A stretch of 64,000 nucleotides of DNA, taken from IMG/VR virus record IMGVR_UViG_2894352420_000001, positions 1-64,000 of that record. One strand, 5' to 3'. The number at the start of each line of letters is the position of its first letter. Within the stretch, counting starts at the first letter, position 1. This stretch comes from a virus (lineage: Duplodnaviria; Caudoviricetes). The translations under genes were made by a program, and so were the position numbers. The notes below the pieces were generated by a model. It did not search any database and was not told the DNA's origin. It saw only the letters and a program-made list of their open reading frames with translations. Positions 4,911-60,637 of this stretch are shown one piece after another.

Positions 4911-5003
4911 GTGGTATTGTTTCTGTGAGAGGCTACAATACCATTCTTCGGAATGGAAGTTCCAACGAACCCAAATCGACTCTCACGCGATTTGGGTTTC
5001 TTC
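4911..5003 (+). promoter_or_regulatory. Kissing-loop hairpin / terminator-like RNA element A
   Basis: 10-bp stem 4911-4920/4935-4944 with loop GTGAGAG (4925-4931); 11-bp stem 4968-4978/4988-4998 with loop CTCTCAC (4980-4986), followed by a pyrimidine tail. Confidence 0.65.
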
Positions 5004-5013
5004 ATTTAAAAAT

Positions 5014-5548
5014 GGTCGTTAAAAGTGGAAGGAAGTGTTCTTTTTGGAAACGCAAACGCGTATCCGATTTGTATCGTAAGAAGTAAGGGAGTAGTAAAAA
5101 GGAGCTTGAATATTCATACGCGGAGAATTGAAAGGCGGGTGTTTTATGAAACCGGAAGGCTGGTATTCCTGGGAGTTCGATCCTCTCAACGGCCGCAACC
5201 ATCCAGACGACGAGAGGAGTTAGTAATACGGAATAAAGATCAAGAGGACGTTTACCCGGTAAAAGTGTAGGGAAATAATAAAGTCGCCCTTAGCCTGCTT
5301 GAAATTGAGGTCCTACAGGTGAAAACTCCACCGGGAATGTGTGACAAATTAGGCATTCCCGGTTTCAAAACTATCTGGATAACAACACTAAATAAGCGTA
5401 GAACCGATCCGTATAAATAATGAGGCAAGTACGGTCGATGTTGGTAAATCTAAGTGTTTTCTTGCCAGGTATCGTGAATGCCAAATGCAGATTAGTACAA
5501 CATAACGGGGATAGTACCGGCAGCAGTAAAATGTTGCCGGTTTTCAAA
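5014..5548 (+). ncRNA. Candidate large structured ncRNA
   Basis: At least 9 helices of 5-11 bp, including long-range and crossing pairs, plus a T-loop arm; no convincing ORF; directly downstream of the tRNA. Confidence 0.55.
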
Positions 5549-5578
5549 GATTTCATTTCAAATTACAATGCAACAGTC

Positions 5579-5797
5579 ATGACACAAGAATCAAAAGACA
5601 AATTGATTGCAGCAGGTCGTCAAGACTTGGTCGACAATTTCGAAATTAGTAAGTCTGGTAATGCTGGAATTTTACCTGGTGGCGAATTAGTTGATTGCCG
5701 TGTATATCCAAATGCAGTCCCGATTCCGCCAAATAATCCTTTTCTAAGTATTACGCCGCAAATGGCAAAAGATGCTGCAATAAATAATAAGAAATAG
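5579..5797 (+). CDS. Hypothetical protein (72 aa)
   Basis: 3' part of track ORF 5420..5797 (MTQESKDK...); the upstream part overlaps the structured RNA. Confidence 0.45.
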   Translation: MTQESKDKLIAAGRQDLVDNFEISKSGNAGILPGGELVDCRVYPNAVPIPPNNPFLSITPQMAKDAAINNKK

Positions 5798-5813
5798 AAC
5801 AACTTACACACAC

Positions 5814-6887
5814 ATGCCAAATTTCTGCCAAAAGTTCGCAATGAGATGTTCGGAGCAGCAGTGGAAAATTGCTCAGGTTGACGGATATCCTTTGTCTGTT
5901 CAATTGATAAAATTGGGATACGATCTTTCACTACTTCAATTTTACCCGAACAAGCCCTATGTTGCTACTTTCTACAAACAAAGTAGTAACAAGATTTCTA
6001 CAACTAATACCCCTTTTAAAGATGGCAGGGAGGTCATGGAAACATTTGATGCTTCGCTGTTCTATGCGCTTTGCTGCCAATTGGATGGAGATCATGTTAC
6101 GACAGGCGAATTTATTACCACCAATCAAGGCAAAGTATTTCAGGTCCATTCCTTAGAAGGTACCTGGCTGAGACATAACCACCCAGATGGGAAGAACTCA
6201 GCTTTCGCAAAGGCGTCTGTTCACAAAAGCACTTTCCCGGAATTATTTGCTTGGCTTAACGACAACCCGTTACCAGCTGTCGGAATGATTTCTATTGAAG
6301 AACAGATTCAAAAGAAAAATAAGCCTGAACGTAAGATCAAAACTTTGGAAGCAGAAGCCACTTCTGAATCAACACTGGCAGCAGCCGCAAAAATTTTGGC
6401 TTCTGTAAATGAGATGACCATTGAGCAAATGATTGATTGCTCAAATAGTTTGATTTATGGTGCGACTAAAAGCGAAAAAGAAATCTCTGATCAGGTTGCT
6501 GTTGAAATTATTCCAATAACTGAAAATAAATCCGTAGCGCCTCCATTCCCCTCTAATAAATCTGAGATTAATGAATGGTTAGGGAGTTTGGTTATTCCAA
6601 AAAGCAAGGATCCTGTCGTTCTGGAAAATATAAAATCTCACTGTATTTGTCAGCCAATGAATTTCAAAGATTTGCTGTCCTGGTTTGCTGATCACGATTC
6701 CATCGTATGGGGTTTTATTGAAAAAGGCGAGATTCATTCCGAAATCAGATCCATCAGTCATATATCGAAAGAAAGTGTTTTGTTGTCCGGAGATAATGCA
6801 GAGACGGAGTTTCATCAAATATTTCAGGATCAGCAGCACTTTTTAAACTATGCACTATCAAAAATCAAAACAGATAATCCATTATGA
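5814..6887 (+). CDS. Hypothetical phage protein
   Basis: 357-aa ORF with ACACACAC immediately before the ATG. Confidence 0.7.
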   Translation: MPNFCQKFAMRCSEQQWKIAQVDGYPLSVQLIKLGYDLSLLQFYPNKPYVATFYKQSSNKISTTNTPFKDGREVMETFDASLFYALCCQLDGDHVTTGEFITTNQGKVFQVHSLEGTWLRHNHPDGKNSAFAKASVHKSTFPELFAWLNDNPLPAVGMISIEEQIQKKNKPERKIKTLEAEATSESTLAAAAKILASVNEMTIEQMIDCSNSLIYGATKSEKEISDQVAVEIIPITENKSVAPPFPSNKSEINEWLGSLVIPKSKDPVVLENIKSHCICQPMNFKDLLSWFADHDSIVWGFIEKGEIHSEIRSISHISKESVLLSGDNAETEFHQIFQDQQHFLNYALSKIKTDNPL

Positions 6888-7243
6888 ACTTCTGGTATTT
6901 TTTCTTCACCATTTATTTAATAAGCGGCTTTATAGTCTTCAATAATATTGATTTCGAGAGCGATGATCTCTGTTTCCTGTCGGATGAAGCCAGGTTCTTT
7001 CTGCCATACATTGCTTGGATACCGGTAATTAATTCTATTAATGCCATTGGAATAATAGGTGTTGATATTTACTATTTGATTAAAAAATTAGTTTTTGATA
7101 TCAAATTTAAGATTTGGTTTTTGTATGCCAGGGAGATCAGTAATCGGTACTGGAAAATTCAAACTGATTTGATTAAGAAAAATGGTATTGACTGGTACTT
7201 GAAAGATTTAGATGAAGAAATAACCGGCTCTTTAAAAAAATGA
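6884..7243 (+). CDS. Hypothetical membrane protein
   Basis: Two hydrophobic segments; ATGA overlap with the upstream gene. Confidence 0.55.
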   Translation: MNFWYFFFTIYLISGFIVFNNIDFESDDLCFLSDEARFFLPYIAWIPVINSINAIGIIGVDIYYLIKKLVFDIKFKIWFLYAREISNRYWKIQTDLIKKNGIDWYLKDLDEEITGSLKK

Positions 7244-7363
7244 AAACTGTTGAAGATAAAAAGTTGATTGGCACCTTCATTATTGAAGAGTACGACGGCA
7301 AAAAATATAAAATGCTTTTCGTTGAAGAAGTTCCGGAAGAAAAGACCGATGAAATTATAAGTA

Positions 7364-7726: not shown

Positions 7727-7729
7727 GTG

Positions 7730-9028: not shown

Positions 9029-9113
9029 ATGATATCTATTTCACATGCAAGATATAAGGATTTGGAAGAAGGGTCGGTTTTATTAGAATCGACAAAAAAG
9101 GTAATTTTTATAA

Positions 9114-9151
9114 TATATTTATATTGTAAGTATATTTTATTCATATATTTG
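9114..9151 (+). promoter_or_regulatory. Palindromic operator copy 2 plus sigma-A -7 box of the RNA-repair operon
   Basis: TATATTTA-tattg-TAAGTATA (9114-9134); TATATTTG (9144-9151). Confidence 0.7.
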
Positions 9152-9161
9152 TGATGTCATA

Positions 9162-9257
9162 TCGCAAAACTTTGGTGTACGAGCCTGATATTTTGCGAAA
9201 GCAACGGAGAAGTCCGTAAGCCCATTAACAGCTCGTACCTGTTTTTGGGTTTTTTTT
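9162..9257 (+). promoter_or_regulatory. Kissing-loop leader / attenuator element B
   Basis: Stem 9162-9169/9191-9198 with loop GTACGAGC (9177-9184); hairpin ACGGA-gaag-TCCGT; terminator-like stem with apical GCTCGTAC (9231-9238) and a T8 tract (9250-9257). Confidence 0.7.
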
Positions 9258-9351
9258 GTCTTGACCGGTATATCGATGAACTGAATTTTGGTAAAAGAAG
9301 AGCTACTAATTGACGAAGGCTTGTGTTTAATAACTTTATTAATTTTACAAA

Positions 9352-10368
9352 ATGAATAAAGAATTACTTCTTCAAATGATAAGTGAAAAGTTGGTGACGG
9401 TTCAAAAACACCCGTCCGCTGATTTGTTTATCTATAATTATTCACCCACTGTTCAATATGAAAAACTGTGGAATGAAATCACTTTGCAAACTCGCGGATT
9501 GATTCTTGATTCCGAAATGAATTACGTTGCTCGCCCATTCTCAAAATTTTTCAATTACGAAGAGCATAAGCCAGAAGAAATTCCACTGGTCCCTTTTCAA
9601 GTCTTTGATAAACTTGACGGATCGCTAGGTATTCTTTATTGGATAGAAAATGAGCCCTACATCGCTACGAGAGGAAGCTTTACAAGTAAACAGGCTCTTC
9701 ATGCAACGAGCATATTGCATGGAAATTATTCACATTCTTTTTCTAAGCTTGAAAAGGATAAAACTTATCTTTTTGAGATAATCTACCCAGAAAATAGAAT
9801 TGTAGTCAATTACGGCAAGCTTGATGATATAATCCTATTGGCGATTATTGATAACGAAACCGGCCTTGATTTACCATTACCTGATCAATCATTCTTTAAG
9901 TGCGTAAATAGATATGATGGTTTGTCGGATCTTAATAAAATACGAGAAATTGATAATGCTGACGATGAAGGTTTTGTAATTCTTTTCTCCAATGGAATGC
10001 GCCTTAAGATGAAATTCAAGGAATATGTTCGGCTTCACCGTATTATAACTGGGGTGTCGAATATTGCCATTTGGGAGTATTTAGCCGAAGGCAAACCTTT
10101 TGATGAATTACTTGATCGCGTGCCTGATGAGTTTTATGATTGGGTTAAGAAAACAGAATCGGAACTAACTGGTAAATTCACTGAGATACTGAATCAATGC
10201 AATAGTGTTTTCATGGTAAAAGAATCCAGAAAAGAAACTGCTTTATACTTTCAAACTCAGAAATATCCACCGATTTTATTCCTTATGCTGGACGAAAAAA
10301 GTACTCACAAGGCAATTTGGAAACTCGTGCGCCCGGCTTATTCAAAACCATTCAAAAACGAAATCTAA
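9352..10368 (+). CDS. T4 Rnl1-family ATP-dependent RNA ligase
   Basis: Nucleotidyltransferase motifs KLDGS, FEIIYPENRIVVNY, EGFVILF, RLKMKFKEY. Confidence 0.9.
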   Translation: MNKELLLQMISEKLVTVQKHPSADLFIYNYSPTVQYEKLWNEITLQTRGLILDSEMNYVARPFSKFFNYEEHKPEEIPLVPFQVFDKLDGSLGILYWIENEPYIATRGSFTSKQALHATSILHGNYSHSFSKLEKDKTYLFEIIYPENRIVVNYGKLDDIILLAIIDNETGLDLPLPDQSFFKCVNRYDGLSDLNKIREIDNADDEGFVILFSNGMRLKMKFKEYVRLHRIITGVSNIAIWEYLAEGKPFDELLDRVPDEFYDWVKKTESELTGKFTEILNQCNSVFMVKESRKETALYFQTQKYPPILFLMLDEKSTHKAIWKLVRPAYSKPFKNEI

Positions 10369-11201
10369 TGAAAGTAATATTAACTAAATGGCTACCGGGA
10401 TCAGGTAAATCTACATGGGCAAAAAGTATAATCGATAAAAATCCCAACACCTATAAAAGAATAAATAAGGACGATCTCCGCTCAATGATGGATAATTCCA
10501 ACTGGTCCAAGGACTCAGAAAAATTCATTATAAAGGTGCGTGATACACTAATTCTCCTTGCACTTGAACAAGGAAAGCACGTTATAATAGATGACACTAA
10601 CCTCGCCCCTAAACATGAGGTACATATCCATGATCTTATCAGAGGCAAAGCAGAATTGGAAATTAAGGATTTCACAGACGTCTCAATTGATACCTGCATC
10701 AAATGGGATTTAAAAAGAGCCAACTCCGTAGGTGAAAAAGTAATCCGAAACATGCACAATCAGTTTTTAAAACCTGAAAATGAAATAATTGAGTTTATTG
10801 ATGGCCTTACATCTGCAATTATCTGCGATCTGGACGGAACACTAGCAAATTTGAACGGACGAAACCCGTACGACGCTTCAAAATGCGATAACGACCTTCT
10901 TAATCACGTTGTCGCTGGGATTATAAAAGGAAAAACTGTCATTTTCATGTCTGGACGTGAGGATAAATACAGAGCCCAGACTGAGTTTTTCCTGTCAAAA
11001 CATGGAATAGAATACGTGGGCCTATTTATGCGTGCAACTGGCGATTCCAGAAAGGATTCAATTGTCAAACGAGAACTTTTCGATGCAAACGTCCGTGGAA
11101 GATACAACATAGAATTCGTTCTGGACGACAGAAATCAAGTGGTAGAAACTTGGCGCCAAATGGGTTTAATATGTTTACAGGTTGCAGAAGGAGATTTTTG
11201 A
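10368..11201 (+). CDS. pseT: T4 Pnkp (PseT)-like polynucleotide kinase / 3' phosphatase
   Basis: P-loop (W)LPGSGKST, RINKDDLR, IIDDTN; HAD motifs DLDGT and VLDDR; TAATG coupling to the ligase gene. Confidence 0.88.
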   Translation: MKVILTKWLPGSGKSTWAKSIIDKNPNTYKRINKDDLRSMMDNSNWSKDSEKFIIKVRDTLILLALEQGKHVIIDDTNLAPKHEVHIHDLIRGKAELEIKDFTDVSIDTCIKWDLKRANSVGEKVIRNMHNQFLKPENEIIEFIDGLTSAIICDLDGTLANLNGRNPYDASKCDNDLLNHVVAGIIKGKTVIFMSGREDKYRAQTEFFLSKHGIEYVGLFMRATGDSRKDSIVKRELFDANVRGRYNIEFVLDDRNQVVETWRQMGLICLQVAEGDF

Positions 11202-19714: not shown

Positions 19715-20154
19715 TTCATTGCTTTAATTTTCGCTAACATCTTCGCTTTTAGTTTCGGGAATTCCGATGATGCAAGCATTTCAGCAGACGTTAACACATC
19801 GTAACCCATCGATTCAACGGCTGCCGCATAATCCATTCCGGCCACTACGATCAAAGCATATCCTTTTCCGGCGCGAGATGACAGTTCATCAGCTAACTGT
19901 CTTCCGGTTGCCGCACCTAGCTTCGAATCAGGGAAATAGTGACTGTAAACAACTCCATTAACAATAAGTACATAACCGATCGATGCCCGAAGATTTCCTG
20001 TCTGATCCTTGTAAGTATCCAGCGACCTGGCATGATTTACAAGTTCTTCACCTAGCGCCTGAAGTTGAAGGATAATCGCGCGATTGATTCTCTGGTACCT
20101 CTTTTCAAGCTCTCTCCTGAAATCAGCCGCGGTAAACTTGGATTTTACACCCAT
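19711..20154 (-). CDS. HK97 gp10-like neck / tail-completion protein
   Basis: YKDQTGNLRASIGY...YAAAVE motif. Confidence 0.75.
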   Translation of the reverse strand: MGVKSKFTAADFRRELEKRYQRINRAIILQLQALGEELVNHARSLDTYKDQTGNLRASIGYVLIVNGVVYSHYFPDSKLGAATGRQLADELSSRAGKGYALIVVAGMDYAAAVESMGYDVLTSAEMLASSEFPKLKAKMLAKIKAMK

Positions 20155-20468
20155 AATTTTGAATTCAGCTGCTTGGTTTCAAATCGTTTCACAACACCTT
20201 CAAGCTTAATATGCCCTTCCAATTCCACTTTTATCTTTGTCCCTCGGGCAATTTCCGTTGTTCCCTCAGGCATAAGAATCAAATACTCATATACATAAGC
20301 ATTTCCGTCCGTGACCGTTATGTAAGAACCATTTCCATTCTCCTTGCTTCTGCAAATACCAACTTTTACCCATTCAGCAGCTTGTGGAATCCAATTTCCA
20401 TCTGCATCCTGTCCGCCTGGACTTGTCTGGATATATTGAAACAATTCGTATGGATATTGAGCGAACAT
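20145..20468 (-). CDS. Head-tail joining (head closure) protein
   Basis: Position; GGQDADGNW motif; start MFAQY lies just after the upstream stop. Confidence 0.6.
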   Translation of the reverse strand: MFAQYPYELFQYIQTSPGGQDADGNWIPQAAEWVKVGICRSKENGNGSYITVTDGNAYVYEYLILMPEGTTEIARGTKIKVELEGHIKLEGVVKRFETKQLNSKLWV

Positions 20469-22943: not shown

Positions 22944-23636
22944 TTAAAGTGCACCAAAGATGCTATCAACCTCCTCCTTGGAGGCTTCTTTTCCAGCACC
23001 ACCTCCAACAGGAGTAAATGGACGACCGGATTGTCCCAAACCAAGATCTGAAAGCTTTTGAGACGCCTGGGAAATTTTTGCTTCCGTAGCAGTCACATAT
23101 TCTTGAAAAGCTTCATCTGTTTCAAATTTCGAAGGATCGAAATTATCAATGTATACATCCTTTAAAATAGGATTGAAGTCTTTCAGCTTCGTTTCAAAGA
23201 TTTGTTTCCTTGATTCGCTTGTTTTGCCCGATTCGATAGCTGCCAGTTTATCTGAAAGTAACTTGTTGGCCTCTAACTGCGCCTTGTTGCTTTCAATTAA
23301 CCCTTTTGCCCATTCCGGCACCTCATTGGAATCTTTTGATTTATCCTTGCCGTTTTCAGAACTGCCCCCGGCGGAAGATTCTTTTTCTTTTTTAGCTGCC
23401 TCCTCTTTTTCGTCTTCTTTTTCCTTATCCTTTGCAGCGATTTCAGCAGCAGCGATTCGGTTAATTTCGGACTGGAAAGCTTTTAACATTGCACCGACCC
23501 CGTCAACAGCCTCGTCGATTTCGGTTTCTTCTTTAACGCTTTTCTCGAGATATTCAAGAACCACATTAATTGCTTTCTGGCTGTACCCAAGTGATTTGTA
23601 CTTATTTACAAGCGCTAAGCGTAATTTCTCTTTCAT
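22944..23636 (-). CDS. Capsid scaffolding protein
   Basis: Charged coiled-coil, EVPEWAK motif, first gene of the head operon. Confidence 0.65.
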   Translation of the reverse strand: MKEKLRLALVNKYKSLGYSQKAINVVLEYLEKSVKEETEIDEAVDGVGAMLKAFQSEINRIAAAEIAAKDKEKEDEKEEAAKKEKESSAGGSSENGKDKSKDSNEVPEWAKGLIESNKAQLEANKLLSDKLAAIESGKTSESRKQIFETKLKDFNPILKDVYIDNFDPSKFETDEAFQEYVTATEAKISQASQKLSDLGLGQSGRPFTPVGGGAGKEASKEEVDSIFGAL

Positions 23637-23668
23637 GAAGAATTTGATGTGTGTGTGTAGTGTCAGGA

Positions 23669-23721
23669 CAAAACTATAAATAATATTTTATACTTACAAT
23701 ATAAATATATTTTTATCTTTG
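23669..23721. promoter_or_regulatory. Divergent promoters with palindromic operator copy 3
   Basis: TAGTTTTG (-, 23669-23676), TATACTTA-caata-TAAATATA (23689-23709), TATCTTTG (+, 23714-23721). Confidence 0.72.
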
Positions 23722-23743
23722 TTGGGTAAAACACATACACACT

Positions 23744-24211
23744 ATGAAGAACTTAATTTTTGCTTTAATTGGAATACTATATCTGGGAAGTGCTCGTGCT
23801 CAGGTTACTGTAACCTTTCCTGCGGGAAATATTGCCAGCGAAGAATGGGTCAAATCTCTTGTCACCAAAAAGATAGATTCATTGTCAACGGTGCATTCGA
23901 ATGGGACTAAAAATATTCCGGATTCAGTCGTTCCTTTGCCGAACTGTTTACGGGGGCCAACGATTCAATCGATTACCTTCGACACCATGACTGGAATTTC
24001 AATACTGTTTGACGGAAAGGATGTCTTTGGATTGGATTATCTTCTACTAGGGCCGATTTATGAAATCGTGACGAAAGGTTCTTTGAAGCCAACGAGTAAT
24101 ATCATTAAGATAGGATATCAAAGCCTGCCCCCTGGGGACTACCACCTGACGGTAACTGCAAATACCTGCACCGGGAAAGATTCAAAAGACTTTACCATTA
24201 AGAAAAAATGA
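23744..24211 (+). CDS. Exported protein with one Cys-flanked Ig/Fn3-like domain
   Basis: Signal peptide ...SARA/Q; ASEEWV motif; C..GP.I...C domain. Confidence 0.7.
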   Translation: MKNLIFALIGILYLGSARAQVTVTFPAGNIASEEWVKSLVTKKIDSLSTVHSNGTKNIPDSVVPLPNCLRGPTIQSITFDTMTGISILFDGKDVFGLDYLLLGPIYEIVTKGSLKPTSNIIKIGYQSLPPGDYHLTVTANTCTGKDSKDFTIKKK

Positions 24212-33453: not shown

Positions 33454-33472
33454 ATACTTATATTGTAAGTAT
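33454..33472. promoter_or_regulatory. Palindromic operator copy 4
   Basis: Perfect ATACTTA-tattg-TAAGTAT upstream of the SGNH gene; imperfect -7 box TATATTTA at 33480-33487. Confidence 0.7.
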
Positions 33473-39990: not shown

Positions 39991-41433
39991 ATGAATTACG
40001 AAACTCTTAAACAGTGGCTGAATCAGGTTTCTGATACAACCAAGCTTATAAATATTTTGTGCTCCCAAGGAAAGGATTTCAAAATTGAAGATCTGAAAAA
40101 ACAGTGGGATGTAAAGGAACACGCAGTAATGAATGAGTCTATCCGTCCTAAAAGAACTGTTAATTACGAATATGATGAATCCGATGGGAATGGTGGTTTT
40201 GTAACAAAAACTGGTACAAAACAGGAGTATGTTAATCGCATCCCTGTACCAATGCAAAAAAACATCGTTGGCAAAGCTGTTACATTCCTGTTTGGTAATC
40301 CCGTAGATATCCAGTCAGATGCAGCTTCTCCAGAGGAAATATTGGTTCTTGACGCTATAAAAAAGATTCTTGACGACAATAAAACGGATAGCCAAAACAG
40401 AGTAATAGCCAAAAATCTATTCAAAAGTACTCAGGTAGTAGAGATTTGGTATCCTGAACTGAAAGAAGAAGAGCACGAAGATTATGGATTTAAAACAAAA
40501 TTCAGGCTTCGTTTGTCAATTTTTAGTCCATGGGACGGAAGTGAACTCTATCCCTATTTTGATGAAAAAGGAGATCTCATCGCTTTTAGCAGGTTGTTTG
40601 TCATTAAAGATGATGAAAACAAAAATGTTAAACATTTTGAATGTTATACCTCCGATAACTATTATTTATGGCAGAATAATCAGCAAGGCTGGACTTTAAG
40701 TAAAAAAACACCAAACATTTTAAAACGAATTCCACTGGTTTTTGCGGAGCAGGAAGATGCGGAATGGGCCGATGTGCAATTTGCTATCGAAAGGCTTGAA
40801 ATTCTTCTTTCTAGTCATGGAGACACCAATGATTATAATGGATCCCCGACGGTTGTCGCAGAAGGTCAAATTTTAAGTTTGGGAAAAAAAGGAGAACAGG
40901 GAAAAGTAATAGAAGTTGAGAAAGGTGGTAAAGTTGGCCTTATGGTTTGGGAAGGAGCGCCGGAATCTATTAGAATGGAAGTTGAAAACATGTTTAAGGT
41001 GATACTTACCTACACCCAAACACCAGATATATCATTCGAAGCTGTTAAAGGAATGGGGGCCATCTCCGGCATCGCTCTACGCTTATTATTTATGGATGCA
41101 CATTTAAAGGTCATGGATAAGCGTGAGACATTTGATCCCTATCTAAAACGCCGTTTAAATATTATAAAATCATTTGTCGGCTCGATGAACGTTGCCTGGG
41201 CAAAAACGGCTAGCAAGCTTAAAGTTGATGCTGAAATTATTCCATATACTATAAAAGACGTAATGGAAGAAATTAACGCCTTGGTCGTTGCAAACGGCGG
41301 TAAACCAATTATAAGTCAGATGCAGTCAGTAAATAAAGCTGGTTTAGTTTCTGATCCAGTTGCTGATTTTAAACAGATCCAGGAAGAAACAACTACGGCA
41401 AACACCTTTAGTATTTCAGGGCCGACGATATAA
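39991..41433 (+). CDS. Portal protein, SPP1 family
   Basis: 480 aa after terL; YTQTPDISFE...SGIALRLLF motif. Confidence 0.9.
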   Translation: MNYETLKQWLNQVSDTTKLINILCSQGKDFKIEDLKKQWDVKEHAVMNESIRPKRTVNYEYDESDGNGGFVTKTGTKQEYVNRIPVPMQKNIVGKAVTFLFGNPVDIQSDAASPEEILVLDAIKKILDDNKTDSQNRVIAKNLFKSTQVVEIWYPELKEEEHEDYGFKTKFRLRLSIFSPWDGSELYPYFDEKGDLIAFSRLFVIKDDENKNVKHFECYTSDNYYLWQNNQQGWTLSKKTPNILKRIPLVFAEQEDAEWADVQFAIERLEILLSSHGDTNDYNGSPTVVAEGQILSLGKKGEQGKVIEVEKGGKVGLMVWEGAPESIRMEVENMFKVILTYTQTPDISFEAVKGMGAISGIALRLLFMDAHLKVMDKRETFDPYLKRRLNIIKSFVGSMNVAWAKTASKLKVDAEIIPYTIKDVMEEINALVVANGGKPIISQMQSVNKAGLVSDPVADFKQIQEETTTANTFSISGPTI

Positions 41434-44852: not shown

Positions 44853-45278
44853 TTATGGAGATATCGTTACGGTTTTAGAATAATCTTTGGCAGATAAGTC
44901 ATATTTCCGTTCTAAATTTTTAGCATAATTATCGTACTGTTGATAGGTTTTAAATTTACCCGTAAAATCTCTGGCCTCTTTTAAAGTTTTGGATAGAAAA
45001 GGATTTAAAACAGGTCTATCCCCCAATACAAAATATTCCACAGCTTCGTCATAAGTATAAAACCCATCTTTGGAAACCAGTACTACTAAATATCCTTCTG
45101 AGCCTCCATGTGGCAATATTTTAAACTGAAATTTTTCTTGCGGACCATGTAAAATACCTGCTTCTAAAAGATGCTTCTTTGTCCAGTTAAAACGAACCAC
45201 TCCATACCAAACATCTAATCCATCTACAATAAGAAAAGATGTAAAAAAGATAATTAAAATAAAAGCTAAAATTTTCAT
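44853..45278 (-). CDS. Hypothetical exported or membrane protein
   Basis: N-terminal hydrophobic segment; ATGA overlap with the methyltransferase gene. Confidence 0.55.
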   Translation of the reverse strand: MKILAFILIIFFTSFLIVDGLDVWYGVVRFNWTKKHLLEAGILHGPQEKFQFKILPHGGSEGYLVVLVSKDGFYTYDEAVEYFVLGDRPVLNPFLSKTLKEARDFTGKFKTYQQYDNYAKNLERKYDLSAKDYSKTVTISP

Positions 45279-46798
45279 GTTGATTGTTTTTTAGATTGTT
45301 TTTTCCAAGTTGATTCCGGTAATGGATTCCCTTTCGCTTTTCCATACGCCTGATTTAAACGTGCCCAGTCGTTTTCATCCCTGAATTCGAAGTGTCCCGT
45401 CCCTTTTTTAAAGACTTTAAACCTAAAAAAGCCCCATTCGTACCAGGTGTTTGGTTGAAACCTATTTTCATGCTTGATTATAAATGTGCCCAGAAAGTTT
45501 ACTTTTGGCGTTCCATCTGGATTTAGATGCTTATAGGTTTTGATAAGATCACCCGCTTCGTCTCTTTCGCAAGGGGCATATTTAATTTGCTCTACCTTAT
45601 CAAAGTCCTTGCCCGTAAGAAAGCAAAGTGCTTTGGTTAAATCCATGATATAACCAAAATTAGATTGATAGTCCTTTATTTGGAGTCCCTCGCGGTCGTA
45701 TCCCATTTCCGCAATCCATCCAGTAATAAATTTACGATTTAACATGTGGCCTGAATTTGTTTTCCAGCCTTCTACCTTAAAACGGTTCTCATGCGTATGC
45801 ATCGTAAACCTATCAACTGCTTCAATGATTGCTTTCTGCATATTATTATCAGAAGTTCCGACAATAATTTCCACCATTCTAAATATGTTCTTCATGGTGA
45901 AAGGATAATTAAAGCGACTTTCTACAAACTTGTTAACATCAGCCAATACTCCCTTGGTCATGTATTTTTCAAGGTTGAATTTCTTAAAAACATTTTTCCA
46001 GCATTGTTTTTGGAGCTGTCTGGCAAAAGTGTTTTTATCTCTAATCTCGCCGTCCCGAACGTCGTCATTGCCAGACATTTTAAAATTAAAACCGCCATAT
46101 TGACCAAAATCCATTTGTTTGCAAATTTGATTCAACTCTGCACCTATGTCAGAGAACTTATCAAAGCACCTTAATGCACCCGAGTAATTATTTACAAGTG
46201 CCTGTATCTCGTTATATTTAATCAATCCATCGGACTGATTAAGCTCTGGCATATCGAAATAAAAACCATCAAAATCAGGATTTGTCGCGGTCATTGGTTT
46301 GAATAGGTGAATGATTGCAACTTCTACATCCGTTGTTTTTTCAGCCTCTGTATACATCGAACCTTTGTTCTCGGCAGATCCATAATTTTTAATCAACATC
46401 GAAAGCTCGGATCGATAAGTTGAGTACGGGTTGTGGATTGTTTTATAGTTACACTGAGCAATAATTTCACAGCCTTCCGGTGCGATTTTCCATGCATGTA
46501 AAATATGTTTATCTGCGTTCGAAAACGGCGGGTTCATTAAGATCATTTGAACATGGCTAATTTGTTCATTAGATGTTTGAAACCAATCTGAGCCTATAAC
46601 ACTGTGCTTTACACCTGCCAATGTTCTAAGCTGTGGATGTTTTTCTATTGCCAGTGTGTTAGATGCTCCGGCATCGGCGGCATAGTTAAGTAAGTCTCCT
46701 TTACCTGCCGAAGGATCGAGAACTACTTTGCCGTAGCAGTCGGCATTCATCGCTTCCCATGCTGCTTTATTCGTGGGGTAGAATTCAGAATCGAACAT
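45275..46798 (-). CDS. Class I SAM-dependent amino-methyltransferase with DUF4942-like C-terminus
   Basis: EFYPT, VLDPSAGKGDL, MNPPF; FKVFKKGTGHFEF C-terminal motif. Confidence 0.82.
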   Translation of the reverse strand: MFDSEFYPTNKAAWEAMNADCYGKVVLDPSAGKGDLLNYAADAGASNTLAIEKHPQLRTLAGVKHSVIGSDWFQTSNEQISHVQMILMNPPFSNADKHILHAWKIAPEGCEIIAQCNYKTIHNPYSTYRSELSMLIKNYGSAENKGSMYTEAEKTTDVEVAIIHLFKPMTATNPDFDGFYFDMPELNQSDGLIKYNEIQALVNNYSGALRCFDKFSDIGAELNQICKQMDFGQYGGFNFKMSGNDDVRDGEIRDKNTFARQLQKQCWKNVFKKFNLEKYMTKGVLADVNKFVESRFNYPFTMKNIFRMVEIIVGTSDNNMQKAIIEAVDRFTMHTHENRFKVEGWKTNSGHMLNRKFITGWIAEMGYDREGLQIKDYQSNFGYIMDLTKALCFLTGKDFDKVEQIKYAPCERDEAGDLIKTYKHLNPDGTPKVNFLGTFIIKHENRFQPNTWYEWGFFRFKVFKKGTGHFEFRDENDWARLNQAYGKAKGNPLPESTWKKQSKKQST

Positions 46799-46806: not shown

Positions 46807-46920
46807 AAATCAAAAAGCCCGAAAAGAAAAGAGTCTGGCCACTCAAATCGATTCAGGCTTTAATGAATATAGTTTAAAACATTTCAAACAGCAGCTGGCC
46901 AGAGCGGACATTTGAAATGT
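46807..46920 (-). promoter_or_regulatory. Kissing-loop leader / attenuator element C
   Basis: On - strand: 10-bp stem 46920-46911/46888-46879 with loop TCTGGCCA; terminator-like stem 46861-46852/46823-46814 with apical TGGCCAGA, then a U-rich tail. Confidence 0.7.
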
Positions 46921-46925
46921 GCCAA

Positions 46926-46969
46926 CAAATGTAAGAATTTATTATATACTTATATTATAAGTATATAAT
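46926..46969 (-). promoter_or_regulatory. -7 box plus palindromic operator copy 5
   Basis: TACATTTG (-, 46926-46933); perfect 12-bp arms ATTATATACTTA-tatta-TAAGTATATAAT (46941-46969). Confidence 0.75.
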
Positions 46970-47045: not shown

Positions 47046-47103
47046 TTTTTTCATTGACAATATGGCTTTCTTTGATTGATCTTTGCTAAAAACTTCATCA
47101 ACT

Positions 47104-47544
47104 ATGGAAATCCCGGAGCTGTCAGAAAAACTTGAATTATTCCCTTTTACAAGTGATCACGCTATAATTCTTCCCGTTGTGGCTGGTATTAGCGCGGGAT
47201 TTCCCTCTCCGGCCGCCGACTTCATTGACGTGGCCATTGATCTAAGTAAAGAAATAGTGAAAAATCCTTCATCCACATTTCTGGGGCGCGTTAAAGGCGA
47301 CTCCATGCAAGATATCGGAATAGATGACGGCGATATTATTGTGGTGGACAAAAGCCTGCCCTATAAGGACAATTGCATTGCGGTATGTTTCATCGATCAG
47401 GAATTTACAGTCAAGCGCATACTTATCGATAAAGATATTTGCTGGCTTATTGCAGAAAATGGCAAATACCCGCCCATCCAGGTTACTTCTGAAAGCGAAT
47501 TTATCATTTGGGGCGTAGTTACCAGCGTAATTAAATTCTTCTGA
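47104..47544 (+). CDS. umuD: UmuD-like S24 peptidase
   Basis: SAGFPSPA cleavage site, GDSM, TVKR; no DNA-binding domain. Confidence 0.88.
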
Positions 47545-47545
47545 T

Positions 47546-48808
47546 ATGTTCGCACTGGTTGATTGCAATAATTTCTATGCTTCATGCGAACGTGTGTTCC
47601 GTCCGGAACTCAACGGCGTTCCGATCGTGGTTCTATCAAATAACGACGGTTGTGTTATAGCCAGGTCCAATGAAGCAAAAACACTTGGAATAAAGATGGG
47701 AGCTCCAGCCTTCGAGTACGAAAAGGATTTTGAGAAAAATGGCGTAAAGGTTTTTTCAAGTAACTACGCACTTTACGGAGATATGAGTAGCCGGGTAATG
47801 AACATCCTTTCTACATTCTCTCCGGAGGTTGAAGTTTACAGTATCGATGAAGCCTTTATTCAATTTGATGGATTTGAACTCTTTGATCTTCAAAAAATCG
47901 GCGAAGAAATGCGCAGCGTGGTAACAAAATCAACAGGTATTCCAATATCTGTCGGAATTGCCCCCACAAAAGCGTTAGCGAAGGTCGCCAATAAGATTGC
48001 AAAGAAATTTCAACATACCACGGCCGGGGTTTATGTAATAAAAAGCGAAACCCAAATTCAAAGGGCAATCCAATGGACAAAAGTTGAAGATGTCTGGGGA
48101 ATCGGTCGGCAACATGCAAAGAGACTGAATGCACTAGGCGTTTTTACAGCACTTGATTTCACCCGTATGAATCAGGGATGGGTGCAAAATAATATGTCAA
48201 TCGTTGGGCTCAGGCTTCAACATGAACTGGCCGGTAGGCGCCGCCTTGAACTTGAAGAAGAAAAGAAAAAACAGAACATAGCGACAACCCGAAGCTTTGA
48301 CCAGAATTATACTGAATTCTCTGACATCCACGAGCGTGTTGTAACTTTTGCAACTATATGTGCTCAGAAACTCCGCAAGCAGGACTCTTGCTGTAATGCA
48401 TTGATGATTTTCGTTCATACCAATGCATTCAGGCCCGATCAGCCACAGTATGCGAGAAATGTGGTCCTTCAACTACCCTATCCTACCAATTCGAGTATTG
48501 AATTAGCGAGGTTCGCGGCTGATGGTTTGAAAAAAATTTTTAAATTGGGCTTCGCTTATAAAAAAGCTGGCGTAATCGCGTTGGAAATTACACCGGCAAA
48601 CTATGGACAACGGAGCATATTTGAGAATTCTGATCCCAGACATGGCCCGCTTTTTGCTGTTGTCGATAAGTTAAATAAGTCACTGGGAAATCAGAAAATA
48701 AAACTTGCGGCTCAGGATCTTGGACGTACATGGAAGATGAAACAGGAGAGACTATCACCACGCTATACAACTAAACTGGATGAAATTATAATTATACACG
48801 CAAAATAG
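47546..48808 (+). CDS. umuC: Y-family DNA polymerase (UmuC / Pol V)
   Basis: [26 protein letters not shown]-terminal LSPRYTT. Confidence 0.93.
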
Positions 48809-51572: not shown

Positions 51573-52027
51573 TAAATTCTGTCTTCTTCGTAAAGCTCAA
51601 AATAGAACTTCACTTCTTCATTTGTTTCGGATACCAGTCCATACCGCTTCGCAATCTTGTACTGAGTGTTGATTTCATTTAGATGCTTCATAAATCCAGC
51701 AATGAGTTTCCTAAATTCTTCAAGTGACATTGAATGCTTATTAATATTACAGGAAGCACAAGATGGATTTTGATTCTCAATTCTAAAAGCTTCCGGATTT
51801 TCAAATCCATCATTTACCCATCTTGAAGTTACAAATGCTGTGGAAGTATCATTTTCTGTCGTTGGATTCCCATTTGTCCAATGGGCTGGAATCATCTTTT
51901 GCTTTCTACGGCACGGTTCTATTTCATCAATGTGAAATTTTCCGTTCAAATCGCATCCACAATAGGCGCATTTTCCGTCAAACTTATCGTAAATCAGTTG
52001 GCGTTTTTCTCTCTTGGTCATACTCAC
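51572..52027 (-). CDS. HNH endonuclease family protein
   Basis: CAYCG...HIDEIEP...NPSCASCNINK. Confidence 0.75.
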   Translation of the reverse strand: MSMTKREKRQLIYDKFDGKCAYCGCDLNGKFHIDEIEPCRRKQKMIPAHWTNGNPTTENDTSTAFVTSRWVNDGFENPEAFRIENQNPSCASCNINKHSMSLEEFRKLIAGFMKHLNEINTQYKIAKRYGLVSETNEEVKFYFELYEEDRI

Positions 52028-56133: not shown

Positions 56134-56171
56134 TTAAAAAATTAGACATTTTTAGACGGATTTTTAGACAT

Positions 56172-56369: not shown

Positions 56370-56371
56370 GG

Positions 56372-57886: not shown

Positions 57887-58661
57887 TTTGATTTAGATTA
57901 ACAAGCTCGCCTGATTCTGTCAGCATAAACTCCAATTCGACAAGCATCCCTATAAAATCATTGTAGGCAGTATTCTGGCAAATTCCTTTAACTGACTCCT
58001 CAGGAGCATCTTTATTCTTCTTTTTGACATTCAGGTAAATAGTTTCCTTCACTTTGGGGGCCAATTCGTAAACACCCAATGATTCCAGATTCCGGAACAG
58101 GACATCACCTAAATCCACGCGGTGTGCAGGATCCTTCCTGCGTGCATCGGCATAGCCGTTCGCTACTTTTGATGCAGTTGAAATCCTTTCGGCAGTAGTA
58201 ATTTCCGGCGCAGACAACGGGGCATTATCCGCCTGCTGAGCAAACTTGACCATCACCGGTTTTCGAATTGAATCGAAGTACAGCCTAATCCATCTGACAA
58301 ACTTTGATGATGAAAAAAATATGTCCTTGCCTTCATCAAAATGCCCGTCAATGCCCATTTCCAGCGCTTTCAATATCTCATTTTGAGTGGCGAAAGGAAA
58401 CTTGGCGCAATCCGCTTCGATGGTTTGAATGAAAACTAATTCCTCTTTGTCACCGCGGGATTTCAGCCCCAGACGGATCGTGGCGATGTTACTGATTTTT
58501 TCAGCCAGCGAAAGCAGATCACAATCTTTCAACTTTTGATTCCGATCTGAGACCGTCGATAATTCAACAATCTGATTTTCAAAAACAGATAATTTTTCCA
58601 TCAGGAAATCATTCTGAATTTTGAAAGTGATGCTTTGTGAGCGTGTTGATGTTATTTCCAT
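57873..58661 (-). CDS. Hypothetical replication-module protein
   Basis: 262-aa ORF between initiator and dnaB. Confidence 0.55.
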   Translation of the reverse strand: MEITSTRSQSITFKIQNDFLMEKLSVFENQIVELSTVSDRNQKLKDCDLLSLAEKISNIATIRLGLKSRGDKEELVFIQTIEADCAKFPFATQNEILKALEMGIDGHFDEGKDIFFSSSKFVRWIRLYFDSIRKPVMVKFAQQADNAPLSAPEITTAERISTASKVANGYADARRKDPAHRVDLGDVLFRNLESLGVYELAPKVKETIYLNVKKKNKDAPEESVKGICQNTAYNDFIGMLVELEFMLTESGELVNLNQNESN

Positions 58662-59596
58662 GATTCATTTTTTTGTGCTTCACGCTGTTCCCTGATAAGA
58701 TTTACGGCTTTCCTGGTTGTCTCAACTGCAGTTTGTATTTTCCCTTTTTCGGGCTCTGATTTAGCAAGCGATGCTTTTTCAGCTCTCCAAACCGGCATAA
58801 ATTTTGGCATCCAAGCTGTAAAATATCTTCTGATATCGCTTTCAGATTTGATTCCGTGTTTTTCTGCCTTGCGATCAGAAACAAATCGATCAATCAATTC
58901 AAAATATTCACTTTCAGATACATGTGCGTTTTTTTTACACGCAGTCAAAATATCAGAATCGATTTTAAAAATTTTTTCAACTTCTTCCCAGCTTGGTATA
59001 GGCTTTCGATGATCCAGAGGATTTTCTTTCAAATCGTCTGCGAGTTTTTGAAGTTCATTTTTTACGAAATCCGGAATACCATCGTACGAAGAATCTGCTG
59101 TCGTCTCTTTTTCATCTACGTCAGTAGATGTTTTTTCTTCTTTACCTTTTACTTTACCTTTAGTTTGCGGTGTTTCTGTGACAGAAACACCGATAGAGTC
59201 GGAATTTCTGTCAAATTTACCTGACTTTCGCGCCTGCTGCTGAGAATTTTGTCTTGACAGATTTCGCTTTTCGTATACTGCTTTTAGCTTTTCATCTAAG
59301 GTTTTGCTGTATATTTTGCCATCTAGTTCAAATAAAAGTTCCAACCTGACACAGTAACTCAACACATCCCGTATTTCTGTGACAGAAACTCCGAAGTCTC
59401 CGGCTAAAAGCTCTGTTTCAAGTTCATTATTAACCCAACGATTCTCGTCGGCGGTGGTCAAAACTTCCAGAAACATAGTCCAAATGGCGTATCCAGGCAG
59501 TCCGTATTTAGCACGTATTGCTTTTATTTTCCTATGGTTGCGCATATCACCATCGTGACCAAAAAAATCAGCGTTATTTTTTGTGGGTCTTGGCAT
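58652..59596 (-). CDS. Replication initiator (DUF4373 / Lin1244-like N-terminus)
   Basis: FFGHDGDMRNHRKIKAIRAKYGLPGYAIW; low-complexity linker; upstream of helicase. Confidence 0.75.
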   Translation of the reverse strand: MPRPTKNNADFFGHDGDMRNHRKIKAIRAKYGLPGYAIWTMFLEVLTTADENRWVNNELETELLAGDFGVSVTEIRDVLSYCVRLELLFELDGKIYSKTLDEKLKAVYEKRNLSRQNSQQQARKSGKFDRNSDSIGVSVTETPQTKGKVKGKEEKTSTDVDEKETTADSSYDGIPDFVKNELQKLADDLKENPLDHRKPIPSWEEVEKIFKIDSDILTACKKNAHVSESEYFELIDRFVSDRKAEKHGIKSESDIRRYFTAWMPKFMPVWRAEKASLAKSEPEKGKIQTAVETTRKAVNLIREQREAQKNESWK

Positions 59597-59611
59597 GATT
59601 GCTTTAAATTT

Positions 59612-60154
59612 TCAATTTGATACGGCCTGCTGAAATAAATCCCGAAAATTCATATTGGTCAATCCGCCAAATCCATCATCAACGAGATTCGTTGGGATGA
59701 AATCTTCAAAGTTAGATCTCACGAAATGAACGCCTTCTATATCTACTGAGTAAGTATAACAACTTGTCCTACATGAAGACCCGGCTGCGAAGATAAAATT
59801 GGAATCAAGGTCAATCGAAGCACCGATCAGGACGATACAATAAGAAATCATATAGTCCTCAAATAGACATTTCTCTCGAAAATACTTCACCAATCCTGCT
59901 TCATATCTACATGCTTGACCGAATGCTCCAAAGCCTATTTGATCCTTTTTAAGTTCATATATGGATACTTGTATAGTATTCTCGCCGAGAAAATCGGTTG
60001 ACGAAATCCCTACAACATCCGCAATTCCATATGCTCCCATATCAACCTGCTTTAAAATTACTTTATGGTCAAAACATGTCAAGCCTCTCCGGATTAATAT
60101 TTCGGTGTTATCAGTTGATAACATATTCTCCAAATCTTTCTCCAATATTTTCAT
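59612..60154 (-). CDS. PD-(D/E)XK nuclease-like protein (NucS C-terminal-like)
   Basis: EKDLE...GIADVVGI...IYELK...GQACRY. Confidence 0.55.
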   Translation of the reverse strand: MKILEKDLENMLSTDNTEILIRRGLTCFDHKVILKQVDMGAYGIADVVGISSTDFLGENTIQVSIYELKKDQIGFGAFGQACRYEAGLVKYFREKCLFEDYMISYCIVLIGASIDLDSNFIFAAGSSCRTSCYTYSVDIEGVHFVRSNFEDFIPTNLVDDGFGGLTNMNFRDLFQQAVSN

Positions 60155-60195
60155 ATTCGAATTTAACCTAACGATTATAATTATACGTACTCCTT

Positions 60196-60483
60196 TTACA
60201 GCGAAGTTGATCTCTTATTCCGGAATACTTCAACGGATTCAATAATCGAGCGGGGAATGCTTAGTACTTTCTGCCCTTTTTCAAAACCAATAACTTTTCC
60301 TTCATCGTTTTGAACGGCTACTTCTCCGGAATATAAAAGACGGACACAACCGTTTTTGAAGTTTAATATTCCTTCATCAACTAATTCTCCGGTGAATAAA
60401 AGCGATGGCGCTTTAAATGGAGGCTCTCCTCCTTTGGTTTTAATCTGGATGAGCTGGCCAACTTTTATATGACTTGTGAACAT
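60196..60483 (-). CDS. Hypothetical protein
   Basis: 95-aa ORF behind leader element D. Confidence 0.55.
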   Translation of the reverse strand: MFTSHIKVGQLIQIKTKGGEPPFKAPSLLFTGELVDEGILNFKNGCVRLLYSGEVAVQNDEGKVIGFEKGQKVLSIPRSIIESVEVFRNKRSTSL

Positions 60484-60509
60484 AAAAATGTAATTTTGAG
60501 AGTTCTATA

Positions 60510-60637
60510 AAAACAGGAATTCCCGGAAGAGACAGCGGATGACTAGTCCTATCGTGTGCCAAGAACACACAACTGCCCCCTTCCGGGAATGTACAATCCT
60601 TGGAGTTGTAACTCAAAAAGTAGTCAGCCTTTTGGAG
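60510..60637 (-). promoter_or_regulatory. Kissing-loop leader element D
   Basis: On - strand: stem 60637-60629/60620-60612 with loop containing TGACTA; 11-bp stem 60590-60580/60529-60519 enclosing sub-hairpins, one with loop containing TAGTCA. Confidence 0.5.

What the first reader, a model, noticed from the sequence alone, without database searches (positions are those of the whole stretch)
4911..60637. Phage-wide family of leader RNAs: a 5' hairpin loop complementary to the apical loop of a terminator-like stem (4 copies, different sequences)
Seen: four promoter-linked segments share one architecture while their sequences differ. A (4911-5003, +): GTGAGAG/CTCTCAC. B (9162-9257, +): GTACGAGC/GCTCGTAC. 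C (46807-46920, -): TCTGGCCA/TGGCCAGA. D (60510-60637, -): TGACTA/TAGTCA. In each, the complementary words lie in loops, and the second hairpin is terminator-like and precedes a gene or RNA. B, C and D begin about 6-11 nt after a TAnnTTTG box that follows the palindromic operator; A follows the tRNA transcribed from such a promoter. Inference: complementarity kept across non-homologous sequences argues for a selected kissing or pseudoknot contact. It could be an attenuation/antitermination switch read by a phage factor, or could release short RNAs acting in trans (compare HK022 put RNAs, P4 CI RNA, P1 C4). I do not recognise a named family for it.
Basis: partly seen in the sequence, partly recalled or inferred. 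Interest (0 to 1): 0.85.

Follow-up and report, generated by a model that had tools for sequence, protein, structure and literature searches.

The report
Kissing-loop leader RNAs of a phage
Four operons of this Bacteroidota prophage start with a short folded RNA in which the tip of a first hairpin base-pairs with the tip of a terminator-like hairpin, each copy using its own letters; related phages keep the pairing through matched mutations, so it is a real, uncatalogued RNA element whose job, probably gating transcription, is untested.

Summary
All four segments fold as described. In each, the minimum-energy fold puts the complementary words in apical loops: A GUGAGAG/CUCUCAC, B GUACGAGC/GCUCGUAC, C UCUGGCCA/UGGCCAGA, D UGACUA/UAGUCA. 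Loop shuffles give p = 0.003, 0.001, 0.0007 and 0.027. My own scanner finds loop complements of 6 nt or more only at these four places in the window. In 900 kb of host DNA it finds only AT-rich words, at control rate.

The four are exactly the long leaders behind four of the six palindrome-plus-TAnnTTTG promoters. They share no significant sequence with each other, and Rfam has no match.

The decisive new evidence comes from related IMG/VR phages (G405, G409, G410), which hold homologues of leader A. In six aligned copies, 4 of the 7 kissing pairs change on both sides and none changes on one side only. One copy carries a coordinated one-base deletion. The kiss was not part of the search model. 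The homologue of leader D also carries one compensatory change.

The selected loop-loop contact is therefore shown. Its function as an attenuator or transcription gate is inferred.

Earlier notes of this scan describe the same kind of element in at least ten other phage genomes. I found no published description.

The parts
4784..4802 (.). Palindromic operator upstream of the tRNA-Met / leader A promoter. It also faces a divergent promoter for the gene at 3498-4739.
4818..4825 (+). -7 box TACGTTTG (Bacteroidota TAnnTTTG type) driving tRNA-Met plus leader A
   Evidence: position confirmed
4829..4902 (+). tRNA-Met, lying between the promoter and leader A. It is absent at the homologous place in relative G405.
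4910..5006 (+). Leader A. It has an 11-bp 5' hairpin whose loop holds GUGAGAG (4925-4931), a 5-bp middle hairpin with a GGAA loop, and a 12-13-bp terminator-like hairpin whose loop holds CUCUCAC (4980-4986). The tail is UUUCUUCAUUU.
9115..9133 (.). Palindromic operator of the leader B promoter
9144..9151 (+). -7 box TATATTTG, 10 nt before the 5' hairpin of leader B
9162..9257 (+). Leader B. The 5' hairpin loop holds GUACGAGC (9177-9184). A small middle hairpin follows. The terminator-like hairpin loop holds GCUCGUAC (9231-9238) and is followed by U8. Downstream lie the RNA ligase gene (9352-10368) and a polynucleotide kinase gene.
46946..46964 (.). Palindromic operator of the leader C promoter
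46926..46933 (-). -7 box TACATTTG, 5 nt before the 5' hairpin of leader C
46807..46920 (-). Leader C. The 10-bp 5' hairpin loop holds UCUGGCCA (46896-46903). The 10-bp terminator-like hairpin has an apical part holding UGGCCAGA (46834-46841), followed by a U-rich run. The in-frame ATG of the DUF4942 methyltransferase gene at 46798 lies about 10 nt after the run.
60667..60685 (.). Palindromic operator of the leader D promoter, just after the sliding-clamp gene
60645..60652 (-). -7 box TACATTTG, 7 nt before the 5' hairpin of leader D
60510..60637 (-). Leader D. The 5' hairpin loop holds UGACUA (60621-60626). A middle hairpin follows. A long GC-rich stem encloses two small hairpins, one of which has UAGUCA in its loop (60540-60545). 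The U-run starts 5-6 nt after the stem. The ATG of the replication operon is at 60483.

Best explanation
These are promoter-proximal structured leader RNAs of about 95-130 nt. In each, a hairpin at or near the 5' end of the transcript makes a 6-8-bp Watson-Crick loop-loop ('kissing') contact with the apical loop of a terminator-like hairpin. That second hairpin lies just before the first gene in C and D; for A this holds in relative G405, and B lies 95 nt before its gene. Each copy has its own pair of words, so each leader recognises only its own partner.

**Shown:**
- the fold;
- the non-random and mutually exclusive complementarity;
- conservation of the whole element in related phages;
- compensatory change in the kissing helix.

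**Inferred:**
- transcription starts a few nt after the TAnnTTTG box (the established Bacteroidota -7 element);
- the 3' hairpin with its pyrimidine-rich tail stops part of the transcripts, so the leader acts as a gate or attenuator on four non-structural operons: the genes behind the tRNA, tRNA repair, methylase and replication;
- the kiss sets how well that stop works, either by locking the terminator fold or by being the feature that a factor recognises by shape rather than by sequence.

Genes C and D have no room for a promoter of their own, so some read-through must occur. The confidence given is for the whole statement including the gate function; that the element is a real RNA with a selected loop-loop contact I hold at about 0.9.
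For: **Fold and loop positions:**

**Chance tests:**. No comparable loop pair was found in about 1.7 Mb of other phage and prophage DNA, apart from one clean case in L384.

**Cognate pairing:** the cognate pair has the longest Watson-Crick word in every row and column of a 6 x 6 matrix, 6-8 nt against 5 or fewer.

**Leader A homologues:** a covariance model that did not contain the kiss found them at 44-113 bits.
- On the six-sequence alignment, 95% of cells pair.
- 17 pairs change on both sides, against 6.1 +/- 1.7 in shuffles (0 of 500) and 5-7 in slid controls.
- In the kiss alone, 4 of 7 pairs change on both sides (shuffles 0.8 +/- 0.8, 0 of 500; slid controls 0-2). None changes on one side only, and 97.6% of cells pair.

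**Leader D homologue in G405:** the big stem has compensatory changes, and the kiss changes A-U to G-C.

**Conservation:** leader A is the best conserved long stretch between the window and G405, at 82% over 96 nt (85% in a short-word search) against 63-74% for genes. Only a 36-nt match is higher, at 92%.

**Context in relatives:** the leaders sit 10-30 nt after TAnnTTTG boxes, and the start codon lies 5-15 nt after the element in most copies.
Against:
- The tool set's terminator scan lists none of the four hairpins.
- The tails are interrupted U-tracts, and in D the tail is displaced from the stem. Termination may therefore be weak or absent.
- No alternative antiterminator fold was found.
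- No antiterminator or RNA-binding protein was recognised in the phage.
- A plain strong terminator would not need a kiss, so its role in termination is conjecture.
- In A and B the linker is short (7 free nt plus a 5-bp hairpin). A straight coaxial intramolecular kiss would be strained.
- In L384 the same design follows a gene rather than a promoter.
Confidence: 0.5

Rival explanations
1. The leaders are released as stable small RNAs (5' hairpin, 3' terminator hairpin) that act in trans. Each carries both halves of its own address, so accumulated copies could kiss the nascent copy of the same leader. That would give operon-specific feedback or a timer, as in P4 CI or plasmid copy-control RNAs.
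For: - The 5'-terminal hairpin and 3' hairpin are the usual build of a stable bacterial small RNA.
- Every copy has a different, mutually exclusive word pair. That is what one expects if cross-talk in trans matters.
- The short linkers in A and B make an intermolecular contact sterically easy.
- Leader B may have a separate promoter-like box (TAATTTTA) in front of the ligase gene, which would make B a free-standing RNA gene.
- Leader A is conserved beyond what the fold alone needs: the middle hairpin and loop flanks are also kept.
Against: - Different words can also arise by neutral compensatory drift in unrelated copies.
- A scan of the window for other targets of the loops gave nothing beyond chance.
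- Genes C and D must be read through the hairpin, so the RNA is at least also a leader.
- The phage has its own terminase and portal, so a packaging-RNA role is unlikely.
Confidence: 0.2
2. The element is a stability or processing module, not a transcription gate. The kiss ties the 5' hairpin to the 3' hairpin into a compact, nearly continuous helix. This either protects the message from 5'-end-dependent and 3' exonucleases or forms a double-strand-specific nuclease site that sets the 5' end of the mature mRNA.
For: - The hairpin sits directly at the 5' end of the predicted transcript and directly before the start codon.
- The tails are poor U-tracts in A and D.
- The same design occurs between two genes in L384 and after a tRNA in the window. 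A processing or stabilising role fits both places.
Against: - The pyrimidine-rich tail after the second hairpin is conserved in all six A-type copies, and is a clean U7-8 tract in B and in the G405 copy of D. That points to termination.
- Nothing here tests decay.
Confidence: 0.15
3. The loop complements are chance, or a by-product of a DNA-level feature such as protein-binding inverted repeats or quasi-palindrome correction.
For: AT-rich loops give 6-nt complements at roughly one locus per 64 kb in host DNA. The C word contains the palindrome TGGCCA. The D word is only 6 nt (p = 0.027).
Against: - The four p-values combine to about 2e-7 by Fisher's method (my arithmetic).
- All four long operator-linked leaders carry the feature.
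- The words differ between copies, so no single protein site explains them.
- Compensatory changes in homologues are not expected from chance.
Confidence: 0.02

Closest known systems
Promoter-proximal terminator units of phages (lambda PR' - 6S RNA - tR', released by Q) and 5' leader attenuators in general
   Same: A promoter is followed within about 100-200 nt by a hairpin plus U-rich tail that must be read through to express the operon. A short leader RNA is the default product.
   Different: No Q-like or N-like protein, nut/qut-like site or alternative antiterminator fold was found. The defining extra here is a covarying loop-loop contact between a 5' hairpin and the terminator loop, which those units lack. 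(The lambda facts are from my own knowledge.)
Zipper-type attenuator of pLS20 conjugation operons (PMC13401043)
   Same: A leader in which an upstream stem-loop is complementary to a downstream intrinsic terminator. It is found at the head of operons of mobile elements.
   Different: In pLS20 the complementarity covers the terminator itself and extends a long central stem into an antiterminator. Here it is confined to the two loops, the central hairpin is only 5 bp, and both hairpins can coexist with the contact.
Riboswitches with a regulatory kissing loop (cobalamin L5-L13; guanidine-IV, PMC11611296)
   Same: A loop of an upstream hairpin kisses the loop of the hairpin that decides expression or termination.
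   Different: Those have conserved ligand-binding nucleotides and a single sequence family. Here the loop letters are free to vary and no Rfam riboswitch model matches. Ligand sensing is therefore unlikely.
P4 CI RNA (seqB with seqA/seqC) and P1/P7 C4 RNA
   Same: Phage leader-encoded RNAs whose loop pairs with complementary sites on the same transcript and affects transcription or translation downstream.
   Different: Those are single immunity RNAs, processed by RNase P, with targets outside a terminator loop. Here there are four or more copies per phage, each with its own address. Rfam C4 does not match. (Mechanistic facts are from my own knowledge.)
phi29-family packaging RNA (PMC4201828) and the ColE1 RNA I/RNA II kissing complex bound by Rom
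   Same: Two loops of complementary sequence that covary between related phages. Rom shows that a protein can read a kissing complex by shape.
   Different: pRNA loops pair between molecules to build a ring on the portal of phages without a terminase. This phage has a terminase and portal. No Rom-like protein was recognised.

Membership tests
Any Rfam 15 family | Score at or above the family's gathering threshold | tested here: not met
   The whole window at gathering threshold gives only tRNA. The four regions at E <= 5 give only chance-level hits far below gathering scores.
A-type kissing-loop leader (family defined here, model R1) | 5' hairpin, GGAA-looped middle hairpin and terminator-like hairpin with a UUCUUC-type tail, found by a covariance model | tested here: met
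   Window A scores 117.6 bits. G405, G410 and three G409 copies score 44-113 bits, all with E <= 2.5e-8. Leaders B, C and D and the L384 element are not matched, so they are analogues, not shown homologues.
A-type kissing-loop leader (family defined here, model R1) | Loop-loop helix kept by compensatory change | tested here: met
   4 of 7 pairs change on both sides, none on one side only, and 97.6% of cells pair. None of 500 shuffles reaches this. The kiss was not in the model.
Intrinsic (Rho-independent) terminator | GC-rich stem directly followed by a U-tract | tested here: inconclusive
   B and C are good. A has an interrupted tract, and in D the tract starts 5-6 nt after the stem. The simple scan lists none of them. 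Activity cannot be tested here.
Classical attenuator / riboswitch expression platform | Mutually exclusive antiterminator fold that competes with the terminator stem | tested here: not met
   The complementarity covers the loops only. The MFE and centroid folds keep both hairpins.
pLS20 zipper-type attenuator | Upstream stem-loop complementary to the terminator stem, extending a long central stem | tested here: not met
   Read against the abstract. The central hairpin is 5 bp and its flanks are not complementary.
P4 CI / P1 C4 antisense RNA | Sequence and structure family (Rfam C4); RNase P processing; one immunity RNA per phage | tested here: not met
   No Rfam match. There are four copies with different words. 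Processing cannot be tested here.
HK022 put RNA | Two-stem-loop RNA that binds RNA polymerase in cis and suppresses downstream terminators | not testable with these tools
   No model is at hand. The four leaders share no sequence, which argues against one polymerase-binding surface.
ANTAR dual-hexaloop target | Two hexaloops with A at position 1 and G at position 4, the second hairpin overlapping the terminator's 5' arm | tested here: not met
   The loops GUGAGA, UCUCAC, GUACGA, CUGGCC and GGCCAG do not fit. The second hairpin is itself the terminator-like hairpin. (Consensus as in PMC3369931 and PMC8934654, listed.)
phi29-type pRNA | Packaging RNA of phages that lack a classical terminase; Rfam pRNA model | tested here: not met
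   No Rfam match. Terminase and portal are present.

The most novel reading that the evidence does not exclude
The kissing-loop leaders form an address-coded regulatory layer common to many phages. Every early operon starts with a terminator that is locked or unlocked through its own loop-loop contact. The key would be either a shape-reading (Rom-like) factor that recognises any kissing complex, or the accumulating leader RNA itself acting in trans on nascent copies. Either would give an RNA-only, operon-specific timer of early gene expression.
Probability: 0.2. Interest if true: 0.88.

Novelty: new variant of a known kind. Interest (0 to 1): 0.72.

Why it matters
Phage early gene control is understood mainly from lambda-type antiterminators and repressors. 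Here a short RNA module recurs several times per genome, and only the fact of loop-loop pairing is conserved, not its letters.

If it gates transcription, it would be a compact, programmable terminator control. Each copy is orthogonal by design, which would interest both phage biology and RNA engineering. It would also explain many conserved non-coding stretches at the heads of operons in Bacteroidota and other phages.

The element gives a directly testable system: four natural orthogonal pairs in one genome, plus natural compensatory variants in relatives.

Tried and rejected
- **Operator pattern scan of IMG/VR**. It gave only chance AT-rich hits.
- **Relatives sought through individual proteins.** RNA ligase: the gene is mobile and its upstream region is not syntenic. 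Portal and methylase in IMG/VR: no relatives. Sliding clamp in 5.8 billion proteins: best hit 31% identity. Methylase relatives at 60-67% identity: these lie in other contexts (some conjugative-element-like, one phage-like) and have no leader C.
- **Prophages of the same genus with a related portal**. They share no operator and no kissing leaders.
- **Emticicia and Chitinophaga prophages with the same palindrome**. The palindrome marks late promoters with short leaders; the two scanner hits there lie inside genes.
- **Metagenome scan with a conserved core of leader A**. Two unrelated coding hits.
- **Homology among A, B, C and D**. Not significant, so I dropped the idea that A and B are paralogues with compensatory loop changes.
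- **Search of the window for trans targets of the loops**. Uninformative.
- **Zipper-type and ANTAR readings.** Rejected on anatomy.
- **D-position leader of G410** (L419). It is AU-rich and weakly folded, with only an AUUAAU self-complement, so I did not count it.


Full report
**What is there**

The window lies in contig 23 of a 7.4-Mb Bacteroidota genome. Protein names point to Dyadobacter or its relatives. The window is almost entirely a siphovirus-type prophage. Recognised genes include:
- tape measure, major head, portal and terminase;
- DnaB helicase and a replication initiator;
- a sliding clamp, a DUF4942 methyltransferase and a UmuD-like protein;
- an Rnl1-type RNA ligase with a polynucleotide kinase.

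A 19-bp palindrome, ATACTTAYANTRTAAGTAT, occurs six times in the window. It occurs nowhere else in the genome at one mismatch or fewer. Each copy lies next to one or two TAnnTTTG boxes, the established -7 element of Bacteroidota promoters. Four copies are followed by long leaders: B, C and D directly, and A after a tRNA-Met gene. The other two copies (23690 and 33454) drive short unstructured leaders that run straight into start codons.

**Check of the observation**

All four leaders fold into a 5' hairpin and a long terminator-like hairpin followed by a T-rich run. A, B and D also have a small middle hairpin. Z-scores are -3.2 to -4.9. In the minimum-energy folds the complementary words lie in apical loops of 6-8 nt:

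| Leader | 5' hairpin loop | Terminator-like hairpin loop |
|---|---|---|
| A | GUGAGA | UCUCAC |
| B | GUACGA | CUCGUAC |
| C | CUGGCC | GGCCAG |
| D | GCUGACUA | CUAGUCA |

The full Watson-Crick words are 7, 8, 8 and 6 nt. Shuffling generously defined loops gives p = 0.003, 0.001, 0.0007 and 0.027. By Fisher's method (my arithmetic) the combined p is about 2e-7. This applies to a set fixed in advance, namely all the long operator-linked leaders.

I wrote a scanner that looks for a T-run, a terminator hairpin and an upstream hairpin, and then takes the longest complement between loops.
- In the window it finds words of 6 nt or more only at these four loci, among 255 candidates.
- In 900 kb of host DNA it finds 14 loci among 4222 candidates. 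Their words are AT-rich with at most one G or C (one exception, a pyrimidine run) and their stems are weak. The rate equals that of two control measures.

The four leaders do not resemble each other in sequence. In a matrix of six distinct leaders, each 5' loop has its longest complement with its own terminator loop: 6-8 nt against 5 or fewer. Rfam has no match at gathering threshold or at E <= 5.

**Relatives and covariation**

Most routes to relatives failed; they are listed under tried and rejected. Two routes worked.

The first route started from the methylase and RNA ligase hits. Both pointed to one IMG/VR record, G405, which is 79.6 kb and complete. It proved syntenic with the window.
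- G405 holds a homologue of leader A at 82% identity. This is the best conserved long stretch between the two phages.
- The homologue lies directly behind a TATATTTG box, with no tRNA in between.
- G405 also holds a homologue of leader D at the syntenic place, between the homologues of the 165-aa and 95-aa proteins.
- In the A pair, the terminator stem has two compensatory double changes and both loop words are unchanged.
- In the D pair, the large stem has several compensatory changes and the 5' hairpin is rebuilt. The kissing words change from UGACUA/UAGUCA to (G)UGGCU/AGCCA(C). That is an A-U pair replaced by G-C in the middle of the kiss.

The second route used an alignment of the 165-aa protein. 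It found four more phages. I built a covariance model from the two A copies, with the kissing columns left unpaired. It then found one A-type leader in G410 and three in G409, at 44-75 bits.

| Copy | 5' loop word | Terminator loop word |
|---|---|---|
| Window A and G405 | GUGAGAG | CUCUCAC |
| G410 | AUGAGAG | CUCUCAU |
| G409, first copy | GUGAUAG | CUAUCAC |
| G409, second copy (coordinated one-base deletion) | GUGAGG | CCUCAC |
| G409, third copy | GUAGAAGG | CCUUCUAC |

Counts on the six-sequence alignment:
- For the whole structure, 95% of cells pair. 17 pairs change on both sides, against 6.1 +/- 1.7 in shuffles (0 of 500) and 5-7 when partners are slid.
- For the kiss alone, 4 of 7 pairs change on both sides and none on one side only. 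97.6% of cells pair. Shuffles give 0.8 +/- 0.8 (0 of 500) and slid controls give 0-2.

The nested helices were fitted by the model, so those counts lean towards the model's structure. The kiss was not in the model.

G409 has at least two further leaders of the same design with other words: GUUGCAG/CUGCAAC and GUUCGAG/CUCGAAC. An unrelated phage fragment, L384, has one with GUCGAAG/CUUCGAC, placed between two genes.

In the relatives, the A-type leaders start about 10-30 nt after a TAnnTTTG box. Start codons lie 5-15 nt after the element in most copies. G409 has its own palindrome (AAATATC-N7-GATATTT) at these promoters.

**What it is and how it probably works**

The following is shown:
- it is a conserved, multi-copy structured RNA module;
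- its loop-loop helix is under selection;
- each copy has its own word pair;
- it lies between a promoter and the first gene of non-structural operons.

The following is inferred. The 3' hairpin and its conserved pyrimidine-rich tail stop part of the transcripts, and the kiss tunes or reports that stop. Genes C and D have no room for a promoter of their own, so read-through must occur.

I could not decide whether the kiss strengthens the stop, delays terminator folding, or is the handle for a shape-reading factor. No antiterminator or RNA-binding protein was recognised. The terminator quality of A and D is doubtful.

The main rivals are a released small RNA acting in trans on its own nascent copies, and a stability or processing module. 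Chance is practically excluded.

**Comparison with what is known**

The nearest published ideas are these:
- lambda-type promoter-proximal terminators;
- the pLS20 zipper attenuator (PMC13401043);
- the regulatory kissing loops of the cobalamin and guanidine-IV riboswitches (listed);
- the P4 CI and P1 C4 RNAs;
- the self-pairing phi29 pRNA.

The element fails the defining features of each, as set out under membership test. Five literature searches found no description of it. The library is limited, so this is absence in what was searched, not proof of absence.

Earlier AI notes of this scan report the same kind of kissing-loop terminator leader in at least ten other phage genomes. I did not check those notes.

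**Verdict**

The selected kissing contact is supported by covariation. The function is untested. I rate it a new variant of a known kind: a promoter-proximal terminator leader with an address-coded tertiary contact.

Noticed in passing
window 4784-4802, 23690-23708, 33454-33472; loci L250, L252, L254, L261, L269, L282, L286, L300, L304: The same 19-bp palindrome marks late-gene promoters in prophages of Emticicia (three species) and in a Chitinophaga pinensis MAG. There it is followed after 6-9 nt by TATATTTG and a short leader with an ATCCACA or ACACAC box. It therefore looks like a conserved promoter element of a wider group of Bacteroidota siphophages, probably the site of a phage regulator.
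   Followed up: partly
window 4740-4830 and 23637-23743: The palindromes at 4784 and 23690 appear to serve divergent promoters. On the opposite strand each has a TAnnTTTG box followed by an ACACACAC(T) box just before the start codon of a structural or late gene (3498-4739 and 22944-23636).
   Followed up: no
window 4829-4902 versus G405 24046-24065: In this phage a tRNA-Met gene sits between the promoter and leader A. In relatives G405, G409 and G410 the leader follows the promoter directly, so the tRNA is an insertion here or was lost in the relatives.
   Followed up: partly
window 5003-5420: About 400 nt after leader A has no long ORF. There is only a 24-aa basic ORF (5012-5086), starting 6 nt after the leader, and a few 25-27-aa ORFs. 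Other first-reader notes propose a structured or tRNA-like RNA here. In G405 a 207-aa gene follows the leader instead.
   Followed up: no
window 9352-11201: Leader B heads a tRNA-repair pair: an Rnl1-type RNA ligase and a polynucleotide kinase/phosphatase. In G405 the same pair lies behind RusA without a leader, so the leader came or went with a rearrangement.
   Followed up: partly
G409 20080-20160, 40705-40790, 51854-51940 (loci L424-L426): The three A-type leader promoters of phage G409 share a palindrome of their own, AAATATC-N7-GATATTT, in place of the window's operator. The architecture (operator, -7 box, kissing leader, ATG) is kept while every sequence part differs.
   Followed up: no
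window 45275-46798; loci L306-L311: The DUF4942 methyltransferase has 60-67% identical relatives in several contigs. Some are Dyadobacter-type conjugative-element contexts (SSB, ArdC, DUF3945 neighbours) and one is another phage. The gene is shared between mobile elements.
   Followed up: partly
window 47083-48808: The phage carries a UmuD-like S24 peptidase and a Y-family (UmuC-like) polymerase gene, divergent from leader C.
   Followed up: no
alignment A8, columns 41-54: The middle hairpin of the A-type leaders keeps a GGAA (GNRA-type) tetraloop in five of six copies. This hints at a further tertiary contact in the folded RNA.
   Followed up: no
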